This document shows positions 1 to 62,087 of a stretch of DNA of 64,000 nt, in pieces. Source of the stretch: Patescibacteria group bacterium (GTDB lineage Bacteria; Patescibacteriota; Patescibacteriia; Magasanikbacterales; GWA2-37-8). Each line of letters opens with the position of its first letter. The stretch's first letter is position 1. The DNA lies in assembly GCA_041661385.1 (NCBI GenBank), contig JBAZUP010000001.1:145692-209691 (forward strand), written 5' to 3'. The notes beneath the pieces are model-generated. The model saw only the letters and a list, made by a program, of their open reading frames with translations. It did no database searches and was not told the origin of the DNA. Both the position numbers and the translations under genes were made by a program.

Positions 1-2
1 TG

Positions 3-251
3 TACTTCGACGATGTCGAAGAAGGCCGGCGCAAGGTTCAGGAAATGTACGACAAAGGCAAGGAATTGAACAAGAAAGCGAAAGCATTGAACAAGGAGAA
101 GTTTCTCAGCGACATTCAGCTGAGTCAAGTGGAAAATCTCCTCGACAAGCTCGAGGAGAGGATCAACGCCGATCGTCAGGCGATCAAGCGGAGGCCTGCC
201 CACATCGGGGCGGCGAAGAACGGTGCCGGTCTCCGGCTGATTACCGCCTAG
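3..251 (+). CDS. C-terminal 82 codons of a GC-rich foreign-looking ORF, 5' truncated by window start; function unknown
   Basis: Open frame from window edge to TAG at 249-251. Codons are strongly C/G-ending (ttc gac aag ctc gag atc aac), unlike the A/T-ending usage of neighbouring genes. Local GC is far above the window mean. Confidence 0.4.
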   Translation, partial: YFDDVEEGRRKVQEMYDKGKELNKKAKALNKEKFLSDIQLSQVENLLDKLEERINADRQAIKRRPAHIGAAKNGAGLRLITA

Positions 252-278
252 CGCGGTTGAGGACTGAACAAAAAACGT

Positions 279-316
279 CCCCCGGTAGCAATCGCTACCG
301 GGGGACATCTATTTTT
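279..316. terminator. Bidirectional rho-independent terminator: 11 bp GC stem cccccggtagc/gctaccggggg with U-runs on both sides
   Basis: Perfect inverted repeat 279-289/294-304 followed by ctattttt. A-run upstream gives a U-run on the opposite strand. Sits between convergent genes. Confidence 0.6.
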
Positions 317-1280
317 ATTTGTTTCCTCCGTGAAATTTTTTATGAGTTTCACGGAGTTTTTTATTTGTGACGTGAGTATAAATCTGAGTTGTGACTATAT
401 TTTTATGGCCAAGCATTTCTTGTACCGATCTCATATCAGCGCCTTCATTTAGAAGATCAGTCGCGAAGCTGTGCCGGAGAGTATGGGGAGTAGCGTCGAC
501 TGGTAAACCGGCCATCACGGTATATTTACGAACAATGCGTTCAACCGACCGGGGAGTCAACCGGTGTTCGTCGTCGCTTCGATCGGTTTTGTAATTTATA
601 AAAAGTGGCGCGTACATATCTTTGGTGCGGATTTTAAGATATTTTCCAAGCCACCCCAGAGCGCGTTTTGAAAAATATACAGTTCGGGTCGATCCGCCCT
701 TGCCGCTAATACTAATTTCTAGTTCATCAATTTTATCGGATAAAATATTTTTTAAATCAAAAATTCGTGCATTTAATGAAGTAAGTTCTGAAACCCGCAT
801 GCCAGTCGAAAATAATATCTCAAGCATAGTGCGGTCACGCAGGCCGTCTTCTTCTGATGTATCCGGCATGTCCAATAATTTTTCAACCTGATTTAAAGTT
901 AAAAATTTAATCGATTTCTCTTTTTCGGTAAGTTTTGGAAGTTTTATTTTATCGGCCGAAATACATTCAATGTCACGCTCGGTAAAATATTTTACAAGAT
1001 TACGCAAAGCGATTAAATAGTAATTCTGAGTAGATTTTTTATTTAATTTTCCGTGATCGTCTTTTTTTCTTGATAAGTATAATCGATAGTTCCAAATATG
1101 ATCCGGGCTAAGTTCGTGCGGCTTGAGATTTTCAATTTTGTTGTCCTTTAGCCAAACGACAAACATTTTAAGAAAATTATGATAATTACGAGTAGAAACC
1201 TGAGATAAACCTTTCTCAACTTCACAATAATCTAAAAAAGACGATATATGATCAATAATTGGTACAGAAGATTTTGGCAT
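315..1280 (-). CDS. Tyrosine site-specific recombinase / phage-type integrase (XerC/D-like)
   Basis: C-terminal catalytic motif HTLRHSFATDLLNEGADMRSVQEMLGHKNIVTTQIYTHV (R..HxxR..Y). 321 aa. Confidence 0.85.
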   Translation of the reverse strand: MPKSSVPIIDHISSFLDYCEVEKGLSQVSTRNYHNFLKMFVVWLKDNKIENLKPHELSPDHIWNYRLYLSRKKDDHGKLNKKSTQNYYLIALRNLVKYFTERDIECISADKIKLPKLTEKEKSIKFLTLNQVEKLLDMPDTSEEDGLRDRTMLEILFSTGMRVSELTSLNARIFDLKNILSDKIDELEISISGKGGSTRTVYFSKRALGWLGKYLKIRTKDMYAPLFINYKTDRSDDEHRLTPRSVERIVRKYTVMAGLPVDATPHTLRHSFATDLLNEGADMRSVQEMLGHKNIVTTQIYTHVTNKKLRETHKKFHGGNK

Positions 1281-1454
1281 AGTGAAATATTAAGCGACGT
1301 TAGATAAATATAATATATCATATTTGAAAAAAAGGGGATAGGGAGACGTTACTAAACATCAAATTTGGTGTATAGTTATATACAAAGGTCGGATAAAATA
1401 ATAAATATCTCCGTATGTATATTAATTAAACATGGTTAGATTAAACTTAAATTT

Positions 1455-2039
1455 ATGATAAAAAAATATTTAACTGGATTCTTAATACTTTCATCAATTC
1501 TAATAACTGTTCCGGTTTTGGCTAATAATGACGTCTCAGTATCGGATTCCACAACCACATCTTCTTCGACTACAGTTCGAACACAGGAAGAAAAAATTAT
1601 TGAAGCTCAACGTAAATTGGAGGAGCGTTTTCAGGAAGCTAAAAGAAAATTACAAGAAAAATTAACATCTTTGCAAACAAAACAGGTAAATCAGGCTGCT
1701 GCAACCGCTTGTGTTGGGTTAGCTGTAAATAAACGAGAGGCTACTGTAGCCGCAGCGTTTGGAACATATTCTACCACTCAGACATCCGTTCTTACAGCGC
1801 GTGCTAATGCATTAAGCGCTGCTTGGACTGCGCCATCGTCAACACAAAAACAAATTCGGACCGCAGTTAACAGCGCCTGGGCAAATTATCGTACCGCGCA
1901 CAGGACTGCTATTGTAGCTCACAACGCGTCAACTACTGCCGCATGGACATTATTTAAAAAAGAAGCAAAAGACTGTAAGGCTTCACAATCAGGTGTGGTT
2001 GTTGATTATCGATCTTACGGACAGGACATGGCTCAATAA
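1455..2039 (+). CDS. Secreted hypothetical protein, N-terminal signal peptide and Ala/Thr-rich helical region
   Basis: MIKKYLTGFLILSSILITVPVLA signal-like start, predicted coiled coil, no recognisable catalytic motif. Confidence 0.55.
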   Translation: MIKKYLTGFLILSSILITVPVLANNDVSVSDSTTTSSSTTVRTQEEKIIEAQRKLEERFQEAKRKLQEKLTSLQTKQVNQAAATACVGLAVNKREATVAAAFGTYSTTQTSVLTARANALSAAWTAPSSTQKQIRTAVNSAWANYRTAHRTAIVAHNASTTAAWTLFKKEAKDCKASQSGVVVDYRSYGQDMAQ

Positions 2040-2060
2040 TTCATAATTGGATACATTTTA

Positions 2061-2090
2061 AACAAGACCGGTCAGTTTGGCCGGTCTTGT
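2061..2090 (+). terminator. Rho-independent terminator hairpin aagaccgg...ccggtctt
   Basis: 8 bp inverted repeat directly after the stop of the 1455-2039 gene. Confidence 0.4.
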
Positions 2091-2142
2091 AAGTTTATCT
2101 CATTAGGACTAGTATAAATATAGAAGTATTAACCTTAATTTT

Positions 2143-2286
2143 ATGGCATTATTTATATGCCCCAACTGCGAACAACGTTCGGAGATTAAGGAAGAAGATG
2201 ATAAGAAAATAACTTCGCACGTTTGTCCGCATTGTGGCCAAACCTACAATGTGGATCAGGAACTTAATGTGATTCTAGAGGAGTAG
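2143..2286 (+). CDS. 47-aa zinc-ribbon protein (CPNC...CPHC)
   Basis: ORF MALFICPNCEQRSEIKEEDDKKITSHVCPHCGQTYNVDQELNVILEE, below the 60-aa ORF-track cutoff. Two CxxC pairs; followed by a hairpin/T-run. Confidence 0.4.
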   Translation: MALFICPNCEQRSEIKEEDDKKITSHVCPHCGQTYNVDQELNVILEE

Positions 2287-2812
2287 TTTTTTCTTGATTC
2301 AATAGCAACCCAATCATAGGGAATATTATTTCCCTTCGGGTTGTTTTTTTAATTGTGTGTATAAAAATATTAAGCGACATTGAATAAACAGTTACGAAAT
2401 ATTTTAGGGGATAAGACCTGAGAAGGAAATATTTAACATTCAGCCGCTCAAATCTATAGATCAACCTGTATGATCCGTCATCTTAAAATCAAAATTATCA
2501 TTGCAAAGCTGGTATTGTATATGAATATAGATTGAGATATACCTGTAGAAATTATCTTAAACATTTCATCCGTGGCAAATAGTTCGATTCATTATTATAT
2601 ATAGGATGTTTGTTAAATAACTTAATTCGGCAGCTTGATGCAGCCCAGGCTTGCTTAGAGTGCTTTAAAGAAGAAAATAGGGGTATAGTTGGCTACTTAA
2701 CAAAAAAGCCCCCATAAGGGCCCTATATCGAATCTATGTTAGTCGCTTAATCTATGTTATACGACGTTGATAATCCCGTTTATTATACCTTGGCTTTTAC
2801 TTTGCTTACCCC

Positions 2813-41645: not shown

Positions 41646-42233
41646 TTATAATTTCCCAACTAATTCTGTGGAAGGTGTGAGTGTTTTGTCGCCTGGTTTC
41701 CAGTTTACCGGACAGGCTTCTCCGCCATGCTCCCGAACAAATTTTGCTGCTTGAAGCTTGCGAAGCAGTTCCCGCGGATTTCTACCGATATTATTTGCAT
41801 GCACTTCATAAGCTTGAATAATCCCATCCGGATCAATGATAAAACTTCCTCGAAGCGATAGACCTTCTTGAGGAATATATATTCCAAGCGCCTGGCATAA
41901 AGCACCAGTTGGATCGGCGAGCATCGGAAAATTAATCTTACTAATTGAGGGTGAATGATCGTGCCAAGCCTTATGCACGAAAGCAGTATCGGTGCTGACA
42001 CTCATTACTTCTGCGCCTTCTTTTTGAAAATCCGGATATAGATCCGCGAGATCAGAAAGCTCGGTGGGACAAACAAAAGTAAAATCTGCTGGATAGAAAA
42101 ATAATACAACCCACTTTTTATGATAGTCATTAAGACTAATCTTTTTGATTTCCCCGCCAACAAAAGCCTCAAAAGTACTTCCTGGCACGCTTCCGCCAAT
42201 TAGCGGCTGCCGGTAATTTAATAAATTTTCCAT
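41646..42233 (-). CDS. Peroxiredoxin (AhpC/TSA family, typical 2-Cys)
   Basis: FTFVCPTE peroxidatic Cys motif and C-terminal resolving Cys (GEACPVNW). Start moved to MENLLNY. Confidence 0.9.
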   Translation of the reverse strand: MENLLNYRQPLIGGSVPGSTFEAFVGGEIKKISLNDYHKKWVVLFFYPADFTFVCPTELSDLADLYPDFQKEGAEVMSVSTDTAFVHKAWHDHSPSISKINFPMLADPTGALCQALGIYIPQEGLSLRGSFIIDPDGIIQAYEVHANNIGRNPRELLRKLQAAKFVREHGGEACPVNWKPGDKTLTPSTELVGKL

Positions 42234-42290: not shown

Positions 42291-42326
42291 CCCGAAAATA
42301 TATAGGGCGCCTCCGAAGAGGCGCCC
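42291..42326 (-). terminator. Strong minus-strand terminator: 9 bp GC stem gggcgcctc/gaggcgccc with UUCG loop, then UAUAUAUUUU
   Basis: Perfect inverted repeat 42305-42313/42318-42326; the reverse-complement loop is UUCG; AT run follows on the minus strand. Confidence 0.6.
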
Positions 42327-42347
42327 TGGTGGTGCATGGGTTTGCCG

Positions 42348-42524
42348 CTAAGCGGCGTTGTTGTCCTCCTTGGAGAGGGGTGGTACGGGCTGGGACTTTT
42401 GGTCCTTCCCGCTGAAACGATCGACAGCTCCGCCGACGTCGTGTTCGAGAGTCGCCCCGTCGGGTGTCACCAGCTTGGGGTGATATCCGAAGCGCTGATT
42501 GCCCATCCTGCCTGCGTGAGACAT
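42348..42524 (-). CDS. 58-aa GC-rich foreign-looking ORF (MSHAGRMGNQRFGYHPKLVTPDGATLEHDVGGAVDRFSGKDQKSQPVPPLSKEDNNAA), function unknown
   Basis: RBS GAGGAAAGGG 10-14 nt upstream. G/C-ending codons. Terminated by the strong hairpin at 42291-42326. Could instead be a non-coding RNA. Confidence 0.3.
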   Translation of the reverse strand: MSHAGRMGNQRFGYHPKLVTPDGATLEHDVGGAVDRFSGKDQKSQPVPPLSKEDNNAA

Positions 42525-42684
42525 GTGTATCCGCCCTTTCCTCTACTATTAGGTCCATGCTGCTTTAGTAGAGCTTAAAAATGTTATCACAATAAGCTAA
42601 ATATTTCAAGATAAGCTATAAATATCACAACATTTATTATTGACAAAATGTCATAAAAAACATAGACTCTATATACAAATATAT

Positions 42685-60198: not shown

Positions 60199-60227
60199 TT
60201 GACAATATCGTCATATTATGCTAATAT
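60199..60227 (+). promoter_or_regulatory. Near-consensus sigma70 promoter TTGACA-17-TAATAT in the dnaG divergent intergenic region
   Basis: TTGACA 60199-60204, 17-nt spacer, TAATAT 60222-60227, ~85-nt leader to ATG 60315. Confidence 0.5.
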
Positions 60228-60314: not shown

Positions 60315-60767
60315 ATGACCCGTAATACTCGCAGTTCATACCAGAAATTGCTCTTGGTACTCAACGAAGTCTTCGTTGGCTACTGGTTCATCACCTACCC
60401 AGTCATCATCGTCACCGCATCCAACTTCGCCGTTGAGCAAGATTTTTCCGAAAGACTCATCATCTTCGCCTTGCTCCTTCCGGTGTTGAAGATGGTGCTC
60501 TTGCTCGTCGAATTGAACGATGAGATGAAGGCTGCCCGTGAAAACAGGCAGTACGACGAGGAGAAGGCCAATTCCATCGGCCCCATCGAGAACGAACTCG
60601 ACATCCCGACGAATATTCGTCGAATGCACCCCGACCCAAACTGGGGGGAAAAGTTCGTTGCTGCCATGAAGAATCCGCAGCCTGATGACATTCCGCCCGA
60701 AGACGGCAAGCTCCTCGACTTCCCCGCCTACAAGAGGCACAGCAAGAAGCCCGACCTGCCCAACTAA
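60315..60767 (+). CDS. GC-rich foreign-looking 150-aa protein: two N-terminal TM helices plus acidic, Pro-rich C-terminal tail
   Basis: Strong C-ending codon bias (ttc atc ctc gac aac aag ccc), ~52% GC against a ~35% background. Upstream RBS aaggga. Confidence 0.5.
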   Translation: MTRNTRSSYQKLLLVLNEVFVGYWFITYPVIIVTASNFAVEQDFSERLIIFALLLPVLKMVLLLVELNDEMKAARENRQYDEEKANSIGPIENELDIPTNIRRMHPDPNWGEKFVAAMKNPQPDDIPPEDGKLLDFPAYKRHSKKPDLPN

Positions 60768-60788
60768 AGCAGGACATCAGAAACACCT

Positions 60789-60826
60789 CTAACCCCTCCC
60801 CCGATTCGTCGGTGCGGAGGGGTTTA
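60789..60826. terminator. GC-rich hairpin cccctcc...ggagggg then T/A run
   Basis: 7 bp G/C stem with 16-nt loop; weak U-tract. Confidence 0.35.
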
Positions 60827-60836
60827 AATTTTATAC

Positions 60837-62087
60837 TTATTCTTTACGAAGCGCGTCAATTGGACTTAAGTTAGACGCTTTACGGGCCGGATAAATACCG
60901 AACAGTAAACCAATGACGGCTGAAAAACCAACTGAAAGTAAAATTGAAAATAACGAAACATCAAAAACCCATTTGAAGCCAAAACGAACTGCTAGGTAAT
61001 AAATTACATACGCTAAGACCGAACCAATAATAATACCTACTACTCCACCACCAAGTGTAACTAGCACCGCTTCTGAAAGAAATTGTAAAAGGATATCGCT
61101 TTTTTTTGCGCCCAAAGATTTTCTAAGTCCGATTTCAAACGTCCGCTCGGCAACCGATACATACATAATATTCATAATTCCAACCCCTCCCACCAAAAGC
61201 GAGATACAAACGAGCGCCACCAAAAGAAGTGTAACACCATCGGTAACTGTTTTCAGAGATTTCAAAGCGTCAGCCGTGGTATTTATCATAAAATCATCAC
61301 GATCGGGGTTAGTGATAGAATGATTTTCGCGAATTATTGCAGCCAAATCATCCACTGTTTCGGCGGCTTTATTTGTGTCGCGCAGATTAGCTATGATCTG
61401 TCTCACATAATCAATGCCCAATAATTTTTTTTGCATTGTTTTACACGGCATGTAAATAACCGTATCGAGATCAAAAATAAAAGCGGCACCGCGCGGAGCC
61501 AAAACACCAATCACTCGAAATGATTTTCCACTAAGATAGATATTTTTTCCAACCGCCGATTCATCACCAAACAAAGTTTCTTTTACTTTCGCACCTAGCA
61601 CAACAACAGAGGCCAGTGAATCTTCCTCGTCTTTGGCATAAAACCTTCCTTCAGAAAATTTTAACACCTCAACTTCTGCCGCTCCGGCTCCTTCACCCCA
61701 AATAGTTGTTTTTTGATTATAGCCATTGTAGGAAGCGATTTCCTGGCCGATTACCATTCCATACGCAACGGAAATATTTGGGTGTTTACTAACATCTTCA
61801 ATATCTTTATCCCGTAAAGTGGTAATTACAACACCGCTTGCCTGAGCAATTGCGCTATCGCTTGAATTTGCCTTAGATGTTGGAATTTTAGTTTCAATGC
61901 TTAAAGATTTTGCATCAAAAATATCAAATTGACCAAGCACAAACTTTTGCATACCGCGACCCGCCGCCATAATAGTAATAACCGCGCTAATGCCAATACT
62001 AATAGCTAGCATTGTTAAAATCGTGCGGCGCTTTTGGCGCAAAAGGGACTGATATGCGAGTCTAATGTTATTTATACGAATTAACAT
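60837..62087 (-). CDS. ABC transporter permease, MacB/FtsX-like fold
   Basis: N-terminal TM, large periplasmic domain, C-terminal three TM with FtsX-type conserved loop. Confidence 0.8.
   Translation of the reverse strand: MLIRINNIRLAYQSLLRQKRRTILTMLAISIGISAVITIMAAGRGMQKFVLGQFDIFDAKSLSIETKIPTSKANSSDSAIAQASGVVITTLRDKDIEDVSKHPNISVAYGMVIGQEIASYNGYNQKTTIWGEGAGAAEVEVLKFSEGRFYAKDEEDSLASVVVLGAKVKETLFGDESAVGKNIYLSGKSFRVIGVLAPRGAAFIFDLDTVIYMPCKTMQKKLLGIDYVRQIIANLRDTNKAAETVDDLAAIIRENHSITNPDRDDFMINTTADALKSLKTVTDGVTLLLVALVCISLLVGGVGIMNIMYVSVAERTFEIGLRKSLGAKKSDILLQFLSEAVLVTLGGGVVGIIIGSVLAYVIYYLAVRFGFKWVFDVSLFSILLSVGFSAVIGLLFGIYPARKASNLSPIDALRKE

What the first reader, a model, noticed from the sequence alone, without database searches (positions are those of the whole stretch)
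1..316. GC-rich, C-ending-codon gene fragment with GC-clamp terminator abutting a tyrosine recombinase at the window edge
The first ~300 bp are compositionally unlike the rest of the window. The open frame running in from the left edge uses ttc/gac/aag/ctc/atc/gag codons, where neighbouring genes use ttt/gat/aaa/tta/att/gaa. It ends in an 11-bp all-G/C hairpin, also atypical for this AT-rich genome. The next gene is a phage-type tyrosine integrase (315-1280). An integrase next to a foreign-composition gene is the classic signature of the edge of an integrated element, which would extend leftwards out of view. The same foreign composition recurs at 42.3 kb and 60.3 kb, so several small pieces may have come from one GC-rich donor. 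A GC-rich host of an epibiont is one possibility.
Basis: partly seen in the sequence, partly recalled or inferred. Interest (0 to 1): 0.65.

Follow-up and report, generated by a model that had tools for sequence, protein, structure and literature searches.

The report
Small GC-rich orphan gene cassette
The GC-rich stretch at the window edge is a real ~400-bp single-gene insert of foreign composition (a 108-residue orphan protein plus its own hairpin terminator) sitting between ordinary housekeeping genes of an AT-rich candidate-phyla-radiation bacterium. It is not the edge of a large integrated element, and the neighbouring "integrase" is the conserved chromosomal Xer recombinase.

Summary
Bases 1-300 are 54.7% GC against 38% for the window. 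The incoming frame has GC3 0.73-0.77 against 0.31 +/- 0.04 for 64 native genes. A very stable hairpin follows at 277-306. Similar islets lie at 42.3 and 60.3 kb.

The main interpretation does not hold. I extended the contig leftwards through an independent assembly. The GC-rich segment is only about 406 bp (window -99 to 306), and it spans a ribosome-binding site, a 108-aa ORF and the hairpin. Beyond it lie native AT-rich genes (a 387-aa hypothetical, M23 peptidase, GluRS, WecG, ClpB).

The recombinase at 315-1280 scores best as XerD/XerC. It keeps the FtsQ-xer-M23-GluRS order in the seven closest relatives. In two of them xer and M23 are only 57-60 bp apart.

The islet proteins searched (108, 150 and 170 aa) have no homologue in billions of proteins. 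A close-relative scan of viral contigs with the 58-aa islet ORF also found nothing. The junctions are 100% identical in assemblies from several runs, so this is not a chimera.

Best reading: a laterally acquired, independently transcribed orphan gene, moron-like in layout. It is one of at least five such cassettes in about 82 kb. Donor and function are unknown. Interest is modest.

The parts
1..251 (+). 3' part of a 108-aa orphan gene of foreign, GC-rich composition: frame from base 3, 82 codons plus TAG at 249-251. The ATG lies 75 bp left of the window (L001 11356).
   Evidence: Translation. Full ORF from the extended contig, GC1/2/3 = 0.59/0.33/0.77. No homologue. The AF2 model of the 82-aa part is one long helix (residues 2-62) plus a disordered tail.
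277..306 (.). 13-bp-stem, 10-G-C hairpin. It is an intrinsic-terminator-like element that can act in both directions. It closes the GC-rich islet and also sits 8 nt past the xer stop codon, where it is followed by GTTTTTTG on the xer strand.
   Evidence: Terminator scan on both strands. dG -29.9 on the plus strand and -34.5 on the minus strand, z about -8. It is the most GC-rich terminator-like hairpin in 74 kb. Relatives have a hairpin at the same position but with a different, AT-richer sequence.
315..1280 (-). Xer-type tyrosine recombinase, 321 aa. It is a resident neighbour and not part of the islet.
   Evidence: Pfam Phage_integrase plus SAM-like N-terminal domain. Best NCBIfam matches are XerD (228 bits) and XerC (218 bits), both below the equivalog cut-offs. 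530 relatives in Patescibacteria MAGs. Synteny is conserved in the 7 closest relatives.
326..356 (+). Second hairpin plus T-run on the islet's strand, inside the 3' end of xer. It may be a back-up terminator or may be chance.
   Evidence: Terminator scan (L001 10955-10925). The arms are not conserved in relatives.
42304..42327 (-). Islet 2 terminator-like hairpin: 10-bp stem, 8 G-C pairs, UUCG loop.
   Evidence: dG -22.3, z -5.2.
42348..42524 (-). Islet 2 candidate ORF, 58 aa, GC1/2/3 0.66/0.44/0.73. The frame is less certain than for islets 1 and 3.
   Evidence: No family match. No close relative in viral contigs.
42581..42609 (-). Islet 2 promoter-like site, TTGAAA-17-(TG)TAACAT, in AT-rich DNA. 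It is divergent from the tRNA-Asn promoter.
60199..60227 (+). Islet 3 promoter-like site, TTGACA-17-(TG)TAATAT, 10 of 12 matches, in AT-rich DNA.
60315..60767 (+). Islet 3 ORF, 150 aa, GC1/2/3 0.53/0.31/0.74. It is an orphan predicted to form a helical hairpin (a probable small membrane protein) with a disordered tail.
60791..60824 (+). Islet 3 G-C-rich hairpin followed by TTTAAATTTT.
   Evidence: dG -22.4, z -2.9. The ML composition boundary is at 60822.

Best explanation
Bases 1-306 are the right-hand three quarters of a single-gene islet of about 406 bp with foreign (GC-rich) composition. The host is an AT-rich Patescibacteria genome; one NCBI MAG protein identical to an islet product is labelled Candidatus Magasanikbacteria.

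The islet consists of a ribosome-binding site, a 108-codon ORF and a strong G-C hairpin. A sigma-70-like promoter (TTGACC-17-TAGACT) lies in AT-rich DNA about 100 bp upstream of the ATG, outside the window.

The islet fills the convergent intergenic space between the terminator of a native operon (GluRS, M23 peptidase, 387-aa hypothetical) and the stop codon of the resident xer gene. Its hairpin doubles as the xer terminator.

The most likely history is lateral acquisition of a short DNA piece from a GC-richer source by illegitimate recombination, with no dedicated recombinase. The site is a spot that varies between relatives. The gene is now read as its own transcription unit. This is the layout described for phage 'morons', here in a bacterial chromosome.

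The product is a small cytoplasmic protein: a short N-terminal beta-like segment, one helix of about 60 residues (probably a coiled-coil dimer) and a basic disordered tail. Its function is unknown. At least four more cassettes of the same build lie within about 82 kb of this genome.

Shown: composition, coding periodicity, extent, flanks, synteny, orphan status and reproducibility across assemblies. Inferred: foreign origin, promoter and terminator activity, and the mode of insertion.
For: Extent and flanks. L001 extends the window by 9.7 kb. The GC-rich block runs from window -99 to 306 at 57% GC and is followed by native genes.

Coding. GC3 0.77 against GC2 0.33 over 108 codons. The codon table is the reverse of the native one.

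Insertion at a variable site. The gap between xer and M23 is 57-60 bp in L005 and L006 and 497-2357 bp with unrelated content in L003, L004, L007, L008 and L085.

xer is resident. Best matches are XerD/XerC, and synteny is conserved.

Transcription-unit layout. Promoter-like and terminator-like sites were found for each islet. The composition boundaries coincide with RBS and hairpin. The islet hairpins are the three most G-C-rich of all terminator-like hairpins in 74 kb.

Not a chimera. The sequence is 100% identical in four assemblies.

Orphan status. Nothing was found in 5.8 billion clusters, in an exhaustive phmmer search of 1.84 billion representatives, in GTDB genomes by tblastn, or in phage, plasmid and viral collections.

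Lineage restriction. About 2 Mb of relatives contain only one further credible case, L003 8528-8704.

The moron definition is taken from PMC4378225.
Against: No donor or homologue was found, so foreign origin rests on composition alone.

GC2 (0.31-0.33) is like that of native genes. From general knowledge of the GC2/GC3 correlation across genomes, it is lower than expected for a genome with GC3 of about 0.75. The proteins are short and either helical or membrane proteins, which may explain this.

The promoters are AT-rich and native-like, so the unit was either captured behind resident promoters or the promoters evolved in place.

The promoter and terminator calls are consensus matches only.

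All copies seen are identical, so selection on the ORF cannot be measured.

The hairpin is a better terminator for xer (a T6 tail directly after the stem) than for the islet ORF, so it may be partly a native feature.

The context is housekeeping chromosome, not a phage.
Confidence: 0.7

Rival explanations
1. One reading: the islet is the right-hand edge of a large integrated element (prophage or genomic island) that brought its own tyrosine integrase and extends leftwards.
For: A tyrosine recombinase of the Pfam 'Phage_integrase' family abuts a gene of foreign composition.
Against: The leftward extension shows only about 100 bp more of GC-rich DNA and then native core genes. The recombinase is XerD/XerC-like and syntenic in relatives that lack any insert. 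There are no flanking repeats and no tRNA at the site.
Confidence: 0.03
2. Decayed remnant: the cassettes are what is left of one or more larger foreign elements (for example prophages carrying morons) after deletion. Only the expressed or harmless small genes survived.
For: There are several cassettes of the same layout and similar codon bias in one genome. Two of them are in tandem after clpB. The site near xer is variable in relatives.
Against: No phage-like or element-like gene lies next to any cassette. The composition boundaries are sharp at RBS and hairpin. The five cassettes sit at four separate intergenic sites.
Confidence: 0.1
3. Native gene with selected codon usage: a resident, very highly expressed small gene whose C/G-ending codons reflect translational selection rather than transfer.
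For: GC2 and amino-acid make-up are native-like. The promoters are near-consensus. For NNY codons only GNN-anticodon tRNAs are seen, for example tRNA-Asn GTT.
Against: No other gene in 64 kb exceeds GC3 0.40. G-ending codons (AAG, CAG, GAG) rise too, although tRNA-Lys UUU and tRNA-Gln UUG are present. The non-coding hairpins are also G-C-rich outliers. There is no orthologue in any relative.
Confidence: 0.07
4. Structured non-coding RNA: in AT-rich genomes, GC-rich islets are often RNA genes, and the ORF would be incidental.
For: GC-rich islets with strong hairpins occur in an AT-rich genome. Islet 2 has weaker codon periodicity.
Against: Three-base periodicity is strong in islets 1 and 3, with GC3 0.74-0.77 against GC2 0.31-0.33. 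An RBS sits before the ATG. There is no Rfam match, even at E <= 10, apart from terminator look-alikes below threshold.
Confidence: 0.05
5. Assembly chimera or contamination: reads from a GC-rich organism were joined into the contig.
For: The composition changes sharply near a window edge.
Against: The islet is flanked on both sides by native sequence. The same junctions are 100% identical in assemblies made by different pipelines from different runs: JGI, ENA ERZ27249449, Logan SRR6484324 and SRR18595301.
Confidence: 0.02

Closest known systems
Phage 'morons' (extra single-gene transcription units in lambdoid and Mu-like phage genomes)
   Same: One coding region with its own promoter-like and terminator-like signals. 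It is inserted between genes that are adjacent in relatives. Its nucleotide composition differs from the flanks, and no recombinase target is recognisable (definition in PMC4378225).
   Different: It sits among housekeeping genes of a bacterial chromosome, not in a phage or prophage. The promoter lies in native-type AT-rich DNA outside the foreign-composition block. A second, native-composition gene (the 387-aa hypothetical) also occupies the variable gap.
Laterally acquired orphan (ORFan) genes / single-gene genomic islets in bacteria
   Same: Short, lineage-restricted, without homologues, of atypical composition, and located at a variable intergenic site.
   Different: From general knowledge, bacterial ORFans are usually AT-richer than their genome. 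Here they are much GC-richer (GC3 0.75 against 0.31) and come as several look-alike cassettes.
Integrase-bounded genomic islands and prophages
   Same: A tyrosine recombinase gene lies next to DNA of foreign composition.
   Different: The recombinase is the conserved, syntenic Xer. The foreign DNA is about 0.4 kb. There are no att repeats and no tRNA target.
Integron gene cassettes (promoterless ORF plus attC hairpin)
   Same: The foreign-composition unit is an ORF plus a hairpin without a promoter of its own composition, and a tyrosine recombinase is nearby.
   Different: The hairpins are short perfect palindromes (24-30 nt) without the attC R''/R' core motifs. The cassettes are scattered rather than arrayed. 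The recombinase matches integron integrase models at only 105 bits against a cut-off of 265.

Membership tests
Integrated element bounded by its own tyrosine integrase (prophage / genomic island) | A contiguous multi-gene block of foreign DNA next to the integrase | tested here: not met
   The GC-rich block is about 406 bp (window -99 to 306). Native genes follow on the left.
Integrated element bounded by its own tyrosine integrase (prophage / genomic island) | The integrase belongs to the element: it is absent from the empty site in relatives | tested here: not met
   The same gene sits between FtsQ and M23 in the 7 closest relatives, including two with no insert. Best family matches are XerD/XerC.
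Integrated element bounded by its own tyrosine integrase (prophage / genomic island) | Flanking direct repeats (attL/attR), often at a tRNA gene | tested here: not met
   No repeats above chance within or between the islet flanks. There is no tRNA within 40 kb of islet 1.
Moron-like independent transcription unit | A single coding region flanked by a promoter and a factor-independent terminator | tested here: inconclusive
   Consensus promoter-like and terminator-like sites are in the right places for islets 1-3 and for both islet-4 genes. No expression data are available.
Moron-like independent transcription unit | Inserted between genes that are adjacent in related genomes | tested here: met
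   xer and M23 are 57-60 bp apart in L005 and L006. In this genome the gap also holds a native-composition 387-aa gene.
Moron-like independent transcription unit | Nucleotide composition different from adjacent genes | tested here: met
   GC 57% against 38%. GC3 0.77 against 0.31 +/- 0.04.
Moron-like independent transcription unit | Located in a phage or prophage genome | tested here: not met
   The flanks are FtsQ, xer, M23 peptidase, GluRS and ClpB. No phage family hits nearby.
Xer chromosome-dimer recombinase (for the neighbouring gene at 315-1280) | Tyrosine-recombinase catalytic domain plus SAM-like N-terminal domain, with best similarity to XerC/XerD | tested here: met
   PF00589 E = 1.6e-39 and PF02899 E = 1.9e-08. 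XerD 228 bits and XerC 218 bits are the top hits but fall below the equivalog cut-offs of 330 and 335.
Xer chromosome-dimer recombinase (for the neighbouring gene at 315-1280) | Acts at a chromosomal dif site | not tested
   No dif site was sought, and the replication terminus is not in view.
Structured non-coding RNA gene | Match to a known RNA family, or structure without coding periodicity | tested here: not met
   No Rfam match at gathering score. At E <= 10 only sub-threshold terminator look-alikes appear. Codon periodicity is strong.
Integron gene cassette | attC site with R''/R' cores, plus an IntI-type integrase and an array of cassettes | tested here: not met
   The hairpins are short perfect palindromes. 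The integron-integrase model scores 105 bits against a cut-off of 265. The cassettes are dispersed.

The most novel reading that the evidence does not exclude
This Patescibacteria lineage repeatedly captures short 'RBS-ORF-hairpin' pieces from one GC-richer partner, namely its physical host or that host's phages, and places them behind resident promoters. If so, the five or more GC-rich orphan cassettes would be both a host-tracing signal for an uncultivated epibiont and a set of host-interaction small proteins.
Probability: 0.1. Interest if true: 0.65.

Novelty: new member of a known kind. Interest (0 to 1): 0.3.

Why it matters
If the reading is right, the finding itself is ordinary: one more laterally acquired orphan gene. 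It also corrects a tempting but wrong call that a tyrosine 'integrase' next to foreign DNA means a mobile element; here the gene is the resident Xer.

Two points carry modest wider value.

1. An ultra-small, AT-rich candidate-phyla-radiation genome holds several GC-rich orphan cassettes of identical layout. This is unusual, because orphans are normally AT-rich. It could point to the organism's partner or to the partner's viruses.

2. Gene callers trained on the AT-rich genome call these islets in the wrong frame or on the wrong strand: 189 aa in L001, 134 aa antisense in L163 and L168, and 99 aa in L165. Such genes are therefore partly invisible in protein databases.

Tried and rejected
Homology searches that found nothing but the query itself:
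- Word-indexed search of the 108-aa, 150-aa and 170-aa islet proteins.
- Exhaustive phmmer search of the 82-aa fragment.
- tblastn-confirmed scans of GTDB genomes and viral contigs.
- tblastn against phage and plasmid collections.
- Pfam, PHROGs, PADLOC and NCBIfam scans, which gave only coiled-coil-type noise.
- PDB sequence search, noise only.

RNA-gene idea: Rfam at gathering score and at E <= 10 gave only tRNAs and sub-threshold terminator look-alikes, such as His_leader at 41.7 bits against 49.

Shared repeat or mobile-element idea: blastn-short and blastp among the four islets found nothing above chance.

Closer strains for presence/absence and dN/dS: the metagenome scan with Xer returned nothing closer than 75% identity. 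All exact-match contigs are 100% identical, so no polymorphism could be analysed.

Structure:
- The 82-aa part is a single long helix, so no fold search was worthwhile.
- The 150-aa model is a low-confidence helical hairpin.

Exact look-ups of P0002, the 58-aa ORF and the last window gene were not on record.

Full report
**Observation**

The window is 38.2% GC. Bases 1-300 are 54.7% GC. Among non-overlapping 300-bp bins only 42301-42600 (56.0%) is higher and 60601-60900 (52.7%) comes next. A finer 50-bp-step scan gives the same three regions, plus a tRNA region near 52.9 kb and a stretch at 18.8-19.2 kb inside a long native ORF.

The frame entering at base 3 runs for 82 codons to TAG at 249-251. 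Its GC1/GC2/GC3 are 0.60/0.31/0.73. Sixty-four native ORFs of at least 100 aa have GC3 0.312 +/- 0.041 with a maximum of 0.40.

In the islets TTC, GAC, AAG, ATC and CTC are used at 80, 69, 82, 71 and 52%. In native genes the figures are 13, 21, 21, 15 and 6%.

The hairpin at 277-306 is real and very stable, with dG -29.9 kcal/mol and z = -7.8. It has a 13-bp stem with 10 G-C pairs rather than 11 bp of pure G/C. The gene at 315-1280 (minus strand) is a tyrosine recombinase.

**Extending the contig**

An exact-protein look-up of the recombinase returned an ENA contig (L001, 69 kb) and a Logan contig (L002). Both overlap the window at 99.99-100% identity and continue 9.7 kb to the left.

Read through, the ORF is 108 codons long. 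It has an ATG 75 bp left of the window, preceded by GGAG, and GC1/2/3 of 0.59/0.33/0.77. A maximum-likelihood segment search puts the GC-rich block at window -99 to 306, that is 406 bp at 57% GC. The block therefore runs from the ribosome-binding site to the last base of the hairpin.

Further left comes AT-rich DNA with a promoter-like TTGACC-17-TAGACT site. Beyond that is the terminator of a native operon made up of a 387-aa hypothetical, M23 peptidase, GluRS and WecG, followed by ClpB. There is no large element.

**The recombinase**

Its best family matches are XerD (228 bits) and XerC (218 bits), both over the full length. A scan of one genome per species found 530 relatives, all in Patescibacteria-type MAGs.

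In the seven closest relatives with enough flank (55-77% identity), the gene lies convergent with M23 peptidase, with GluRS beyond it and usually WecG and ClpB as well. FtsQ lies on the other side in four of the seven.

The xer-M23 gap is 57-60 bp in L005 and L006. In the other five it is 497-2357 bp and holds unrelated content. xer is therefore a resident gene at a variable intergenic spot, and the islet plus the 387-aa gene are lineage-specific fillers.

Relatives also carry a bidirectional terminator hairpin just after xer, but with other, AT-richer sequences.

**The same build recurs**

Islet 2 (42305-42536, 63% GC):
- Promoter-like TTGAAA-17-TG-TAACAT.
- A 58-aa candidate ORF on the minus strand.
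- A 10-bp hairpin with a UUCG loop.

Islet 3 (60374-60822, 55% GC):
- TTGACA-17-TG-TAATAT.
- A 150-aa ORF with GC3 0.74.
- A G-C hairpin.

Left of the window, after clpB, two more units stand in tandem:
- A 59-aa ORF with GC3 0.72.
- A 170-aa ORF, the shorter start chosen here within the called 207-aa ORF, whose GC3 is 0.49.
- Each has a TTGACA-type promoter and a G-C hairpin.

The hairpins of islet 1, islet 2 and the 170-aa unit are the three most G-C-rich of all terminator-like hairpins found in 74 kb. Native ones have 3-6 G-C pairs.

The islets share no sequence with one another at the DNA or protein level and have no terminal repeats. A further 8.7 kb to the right of the window holds no more islets.

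A scan of about 2 Mb from more than 100 relatives with the same criteria gave only one credible further case. It is a 58-aa Cys-rich ORF with GC3 0.81 in the closest relative, L003.

**Real or artefact?**

All junctions are 100% identical in the JGI window, ENA ERZ27249449, Logan SRR6484324 and Logan SRR18595301. A chimera would need two false joins per islet, repeated by different assemblers on different runs.

**Coding or RNA?**

The three-base periodicity follows the order GC3 > GC1 > GC2, as in genes of GC-rich genomes. An RBS and an ATG are in place. Rfam gives nothing beyond tRNAs and sub-threshold terminator look-alikes. Islets 1 and 3 are protein-coding. For islet 2 the frame is less sure.

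**Origin**

No homologue was found for any islet protein searched:
- The 108-aa, 150-aa and 170-aa proteins match only themselves among 5.8 billion clusters.
- The 82-aa fragment matches only itself in an exhaustive phmmer search of 1.84 billion representatives.
- tblastn-based scans of GTDB genomes, viral contigs, phages and plasmids are empty. The viral-contig scans included the 58-aa ORF of islet 2.

Family libraries give only coiled-coil noise.

Foreign origin therefore rests on composition, on absence from relatives and on the insertion-site comparison. The donor is unknown.

Two observations temper a simple picture of transfer from a GC-rich bacterium. First, GC2 (0.31-0.33) is native-like. 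Second, leucine is coded mainly by CTC and TTG, with little CTG. With only 258 codons neither point is decisive.

Translational selection is unlikely. No native gene exceeds GC3 0.40, G-ending codons rise as well, and the non-coding hairpins share the bias.

**Product**

The AF2 single-sequence model of the 82-aa part is one continuous helix (residues 2-62, pLDDT mostly 78-96) followed by a disordered basic tail. With the 26 N-terminal residues (VVTVIELRTGFCIRVGGKPEVYF, which look strand-like by eye), the protein is most simply a small coiled-coil-forming cytoplasmic protein.

The 150-aa islet-3 protein models as a long helical hairpin whose first parts are hydrophobic, followed by a disordered acidic tail. 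It is probably a small membrane protein. No function can be assigned to either.

**Comparison with known kinds**

The layout matches the published description of phage morons: a single coding region with a promoter and a terminator, inserted between genes that are adjacent in relatives, with different composition and no recognisable recombination target (PMC4378225).

It fails one defining feature, because the context is not a phage. I therefore file it as a laterally acquired orphan-gene islet that works like a moron, not as a moron.

It is not an integrase-bounded island, not an integron cassette and not a known RNA.

**Verdict**

The 'edge of an integrated element' reading is refuted. The 'small foreign pieces' reading is supported by composition, but no donor was found.

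The case is a new member of a known kind. Interest is modest at 0.3. It rises only if the cassettes can be traced to a partner organism.

Noticed in passing
window 326-356 (+), inside the 3' end of xer: A second hairpin, CTCCGTGAAA...TTTCACGGAG, followed by TTTTTTATTT on the islet's strand, 20 nt after the main hairpin. It overlaps the last xer codons and is not conserved in relatives. It may be a back-up stop against antisense read-through into xer, or it may be chance.
   Followed up: partly
window 1281-2812 (hyp194 at 1455-2039 on +, and a 47-aa ORF at about 2143-2286 on +): The other side of xer is also variable. FtsQ and xer are about 97 bp apart in L005 and L006, but here 1.5 kb lies between them. 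It holds a native-composition 194-aa protein with a signal-peptide-like N-terminus, rich in Thr, Ser and Ala. Its only family hit is a weak PADLOC PD-T4-7 match (E = 3.4e-5), probably due to low-complexity or coiled-coil sequence.
   Followed up: partly
L001 19060-20080 (window about -7780 to -8800): Two tandem GC-rich cassettes lie directly after clpB, with ORFs of 59 aa and 170 aa. Each has a TTGACA-17-TATAAT-like promoter and a G-C hairpin. The clpB terminator stem-loop overlaps the -35 box of the first promoter. NCBI labels the 170-aa product as a hypothetical protein of a Candidatus Magasanikbacteria MAG (WCT43_04100).
   Followed up: partly
L001 10911-11480; L163 4348-4752; L165 2076-2375: Public gene calls for the islets are often in the wrong frame or on the wrong strand: 189 aa through the hairpin and into xer, a 134-aa antisense ORF, and a 99-aa Arg-rich ORF. 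Only some pipelines call the high-GC3 frame. Protein databases therefore under-represent such genes.
   Followed up: yes
L003 8528-8704: The closest relative (Xer 77% identical) has one islet of its own. It is a 58-aa Cys-rich ORF (CxxC...C...C, possibly a zinc ribbon) with GC3 0.81, and it is unrelated to the window's islet proteins.
   Followed up: partly
window 1-64000: Gene-strand bias is extreme: about 58 of 65 long ORFs are on the minus strand, and cumulative GC skew falls steadily. The whole window therefore lies on one replichore. Islets 1 and 3 and both islet-4 units are on the minority (head-on) strand, and islet 2 is co-directional.
   Followed up: no
window 42581-42668: The islet-2 promoter-like site and the tRNA-Asn promoter-like site (TTGACA-17-TAGACT) are back to back and about 30 bp apart. 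The islet lies between the tRNA promoter and the peroxiredoxin gene. The true start of that gene is probably the ATG at 42233, not 42281.
   Followed up: no
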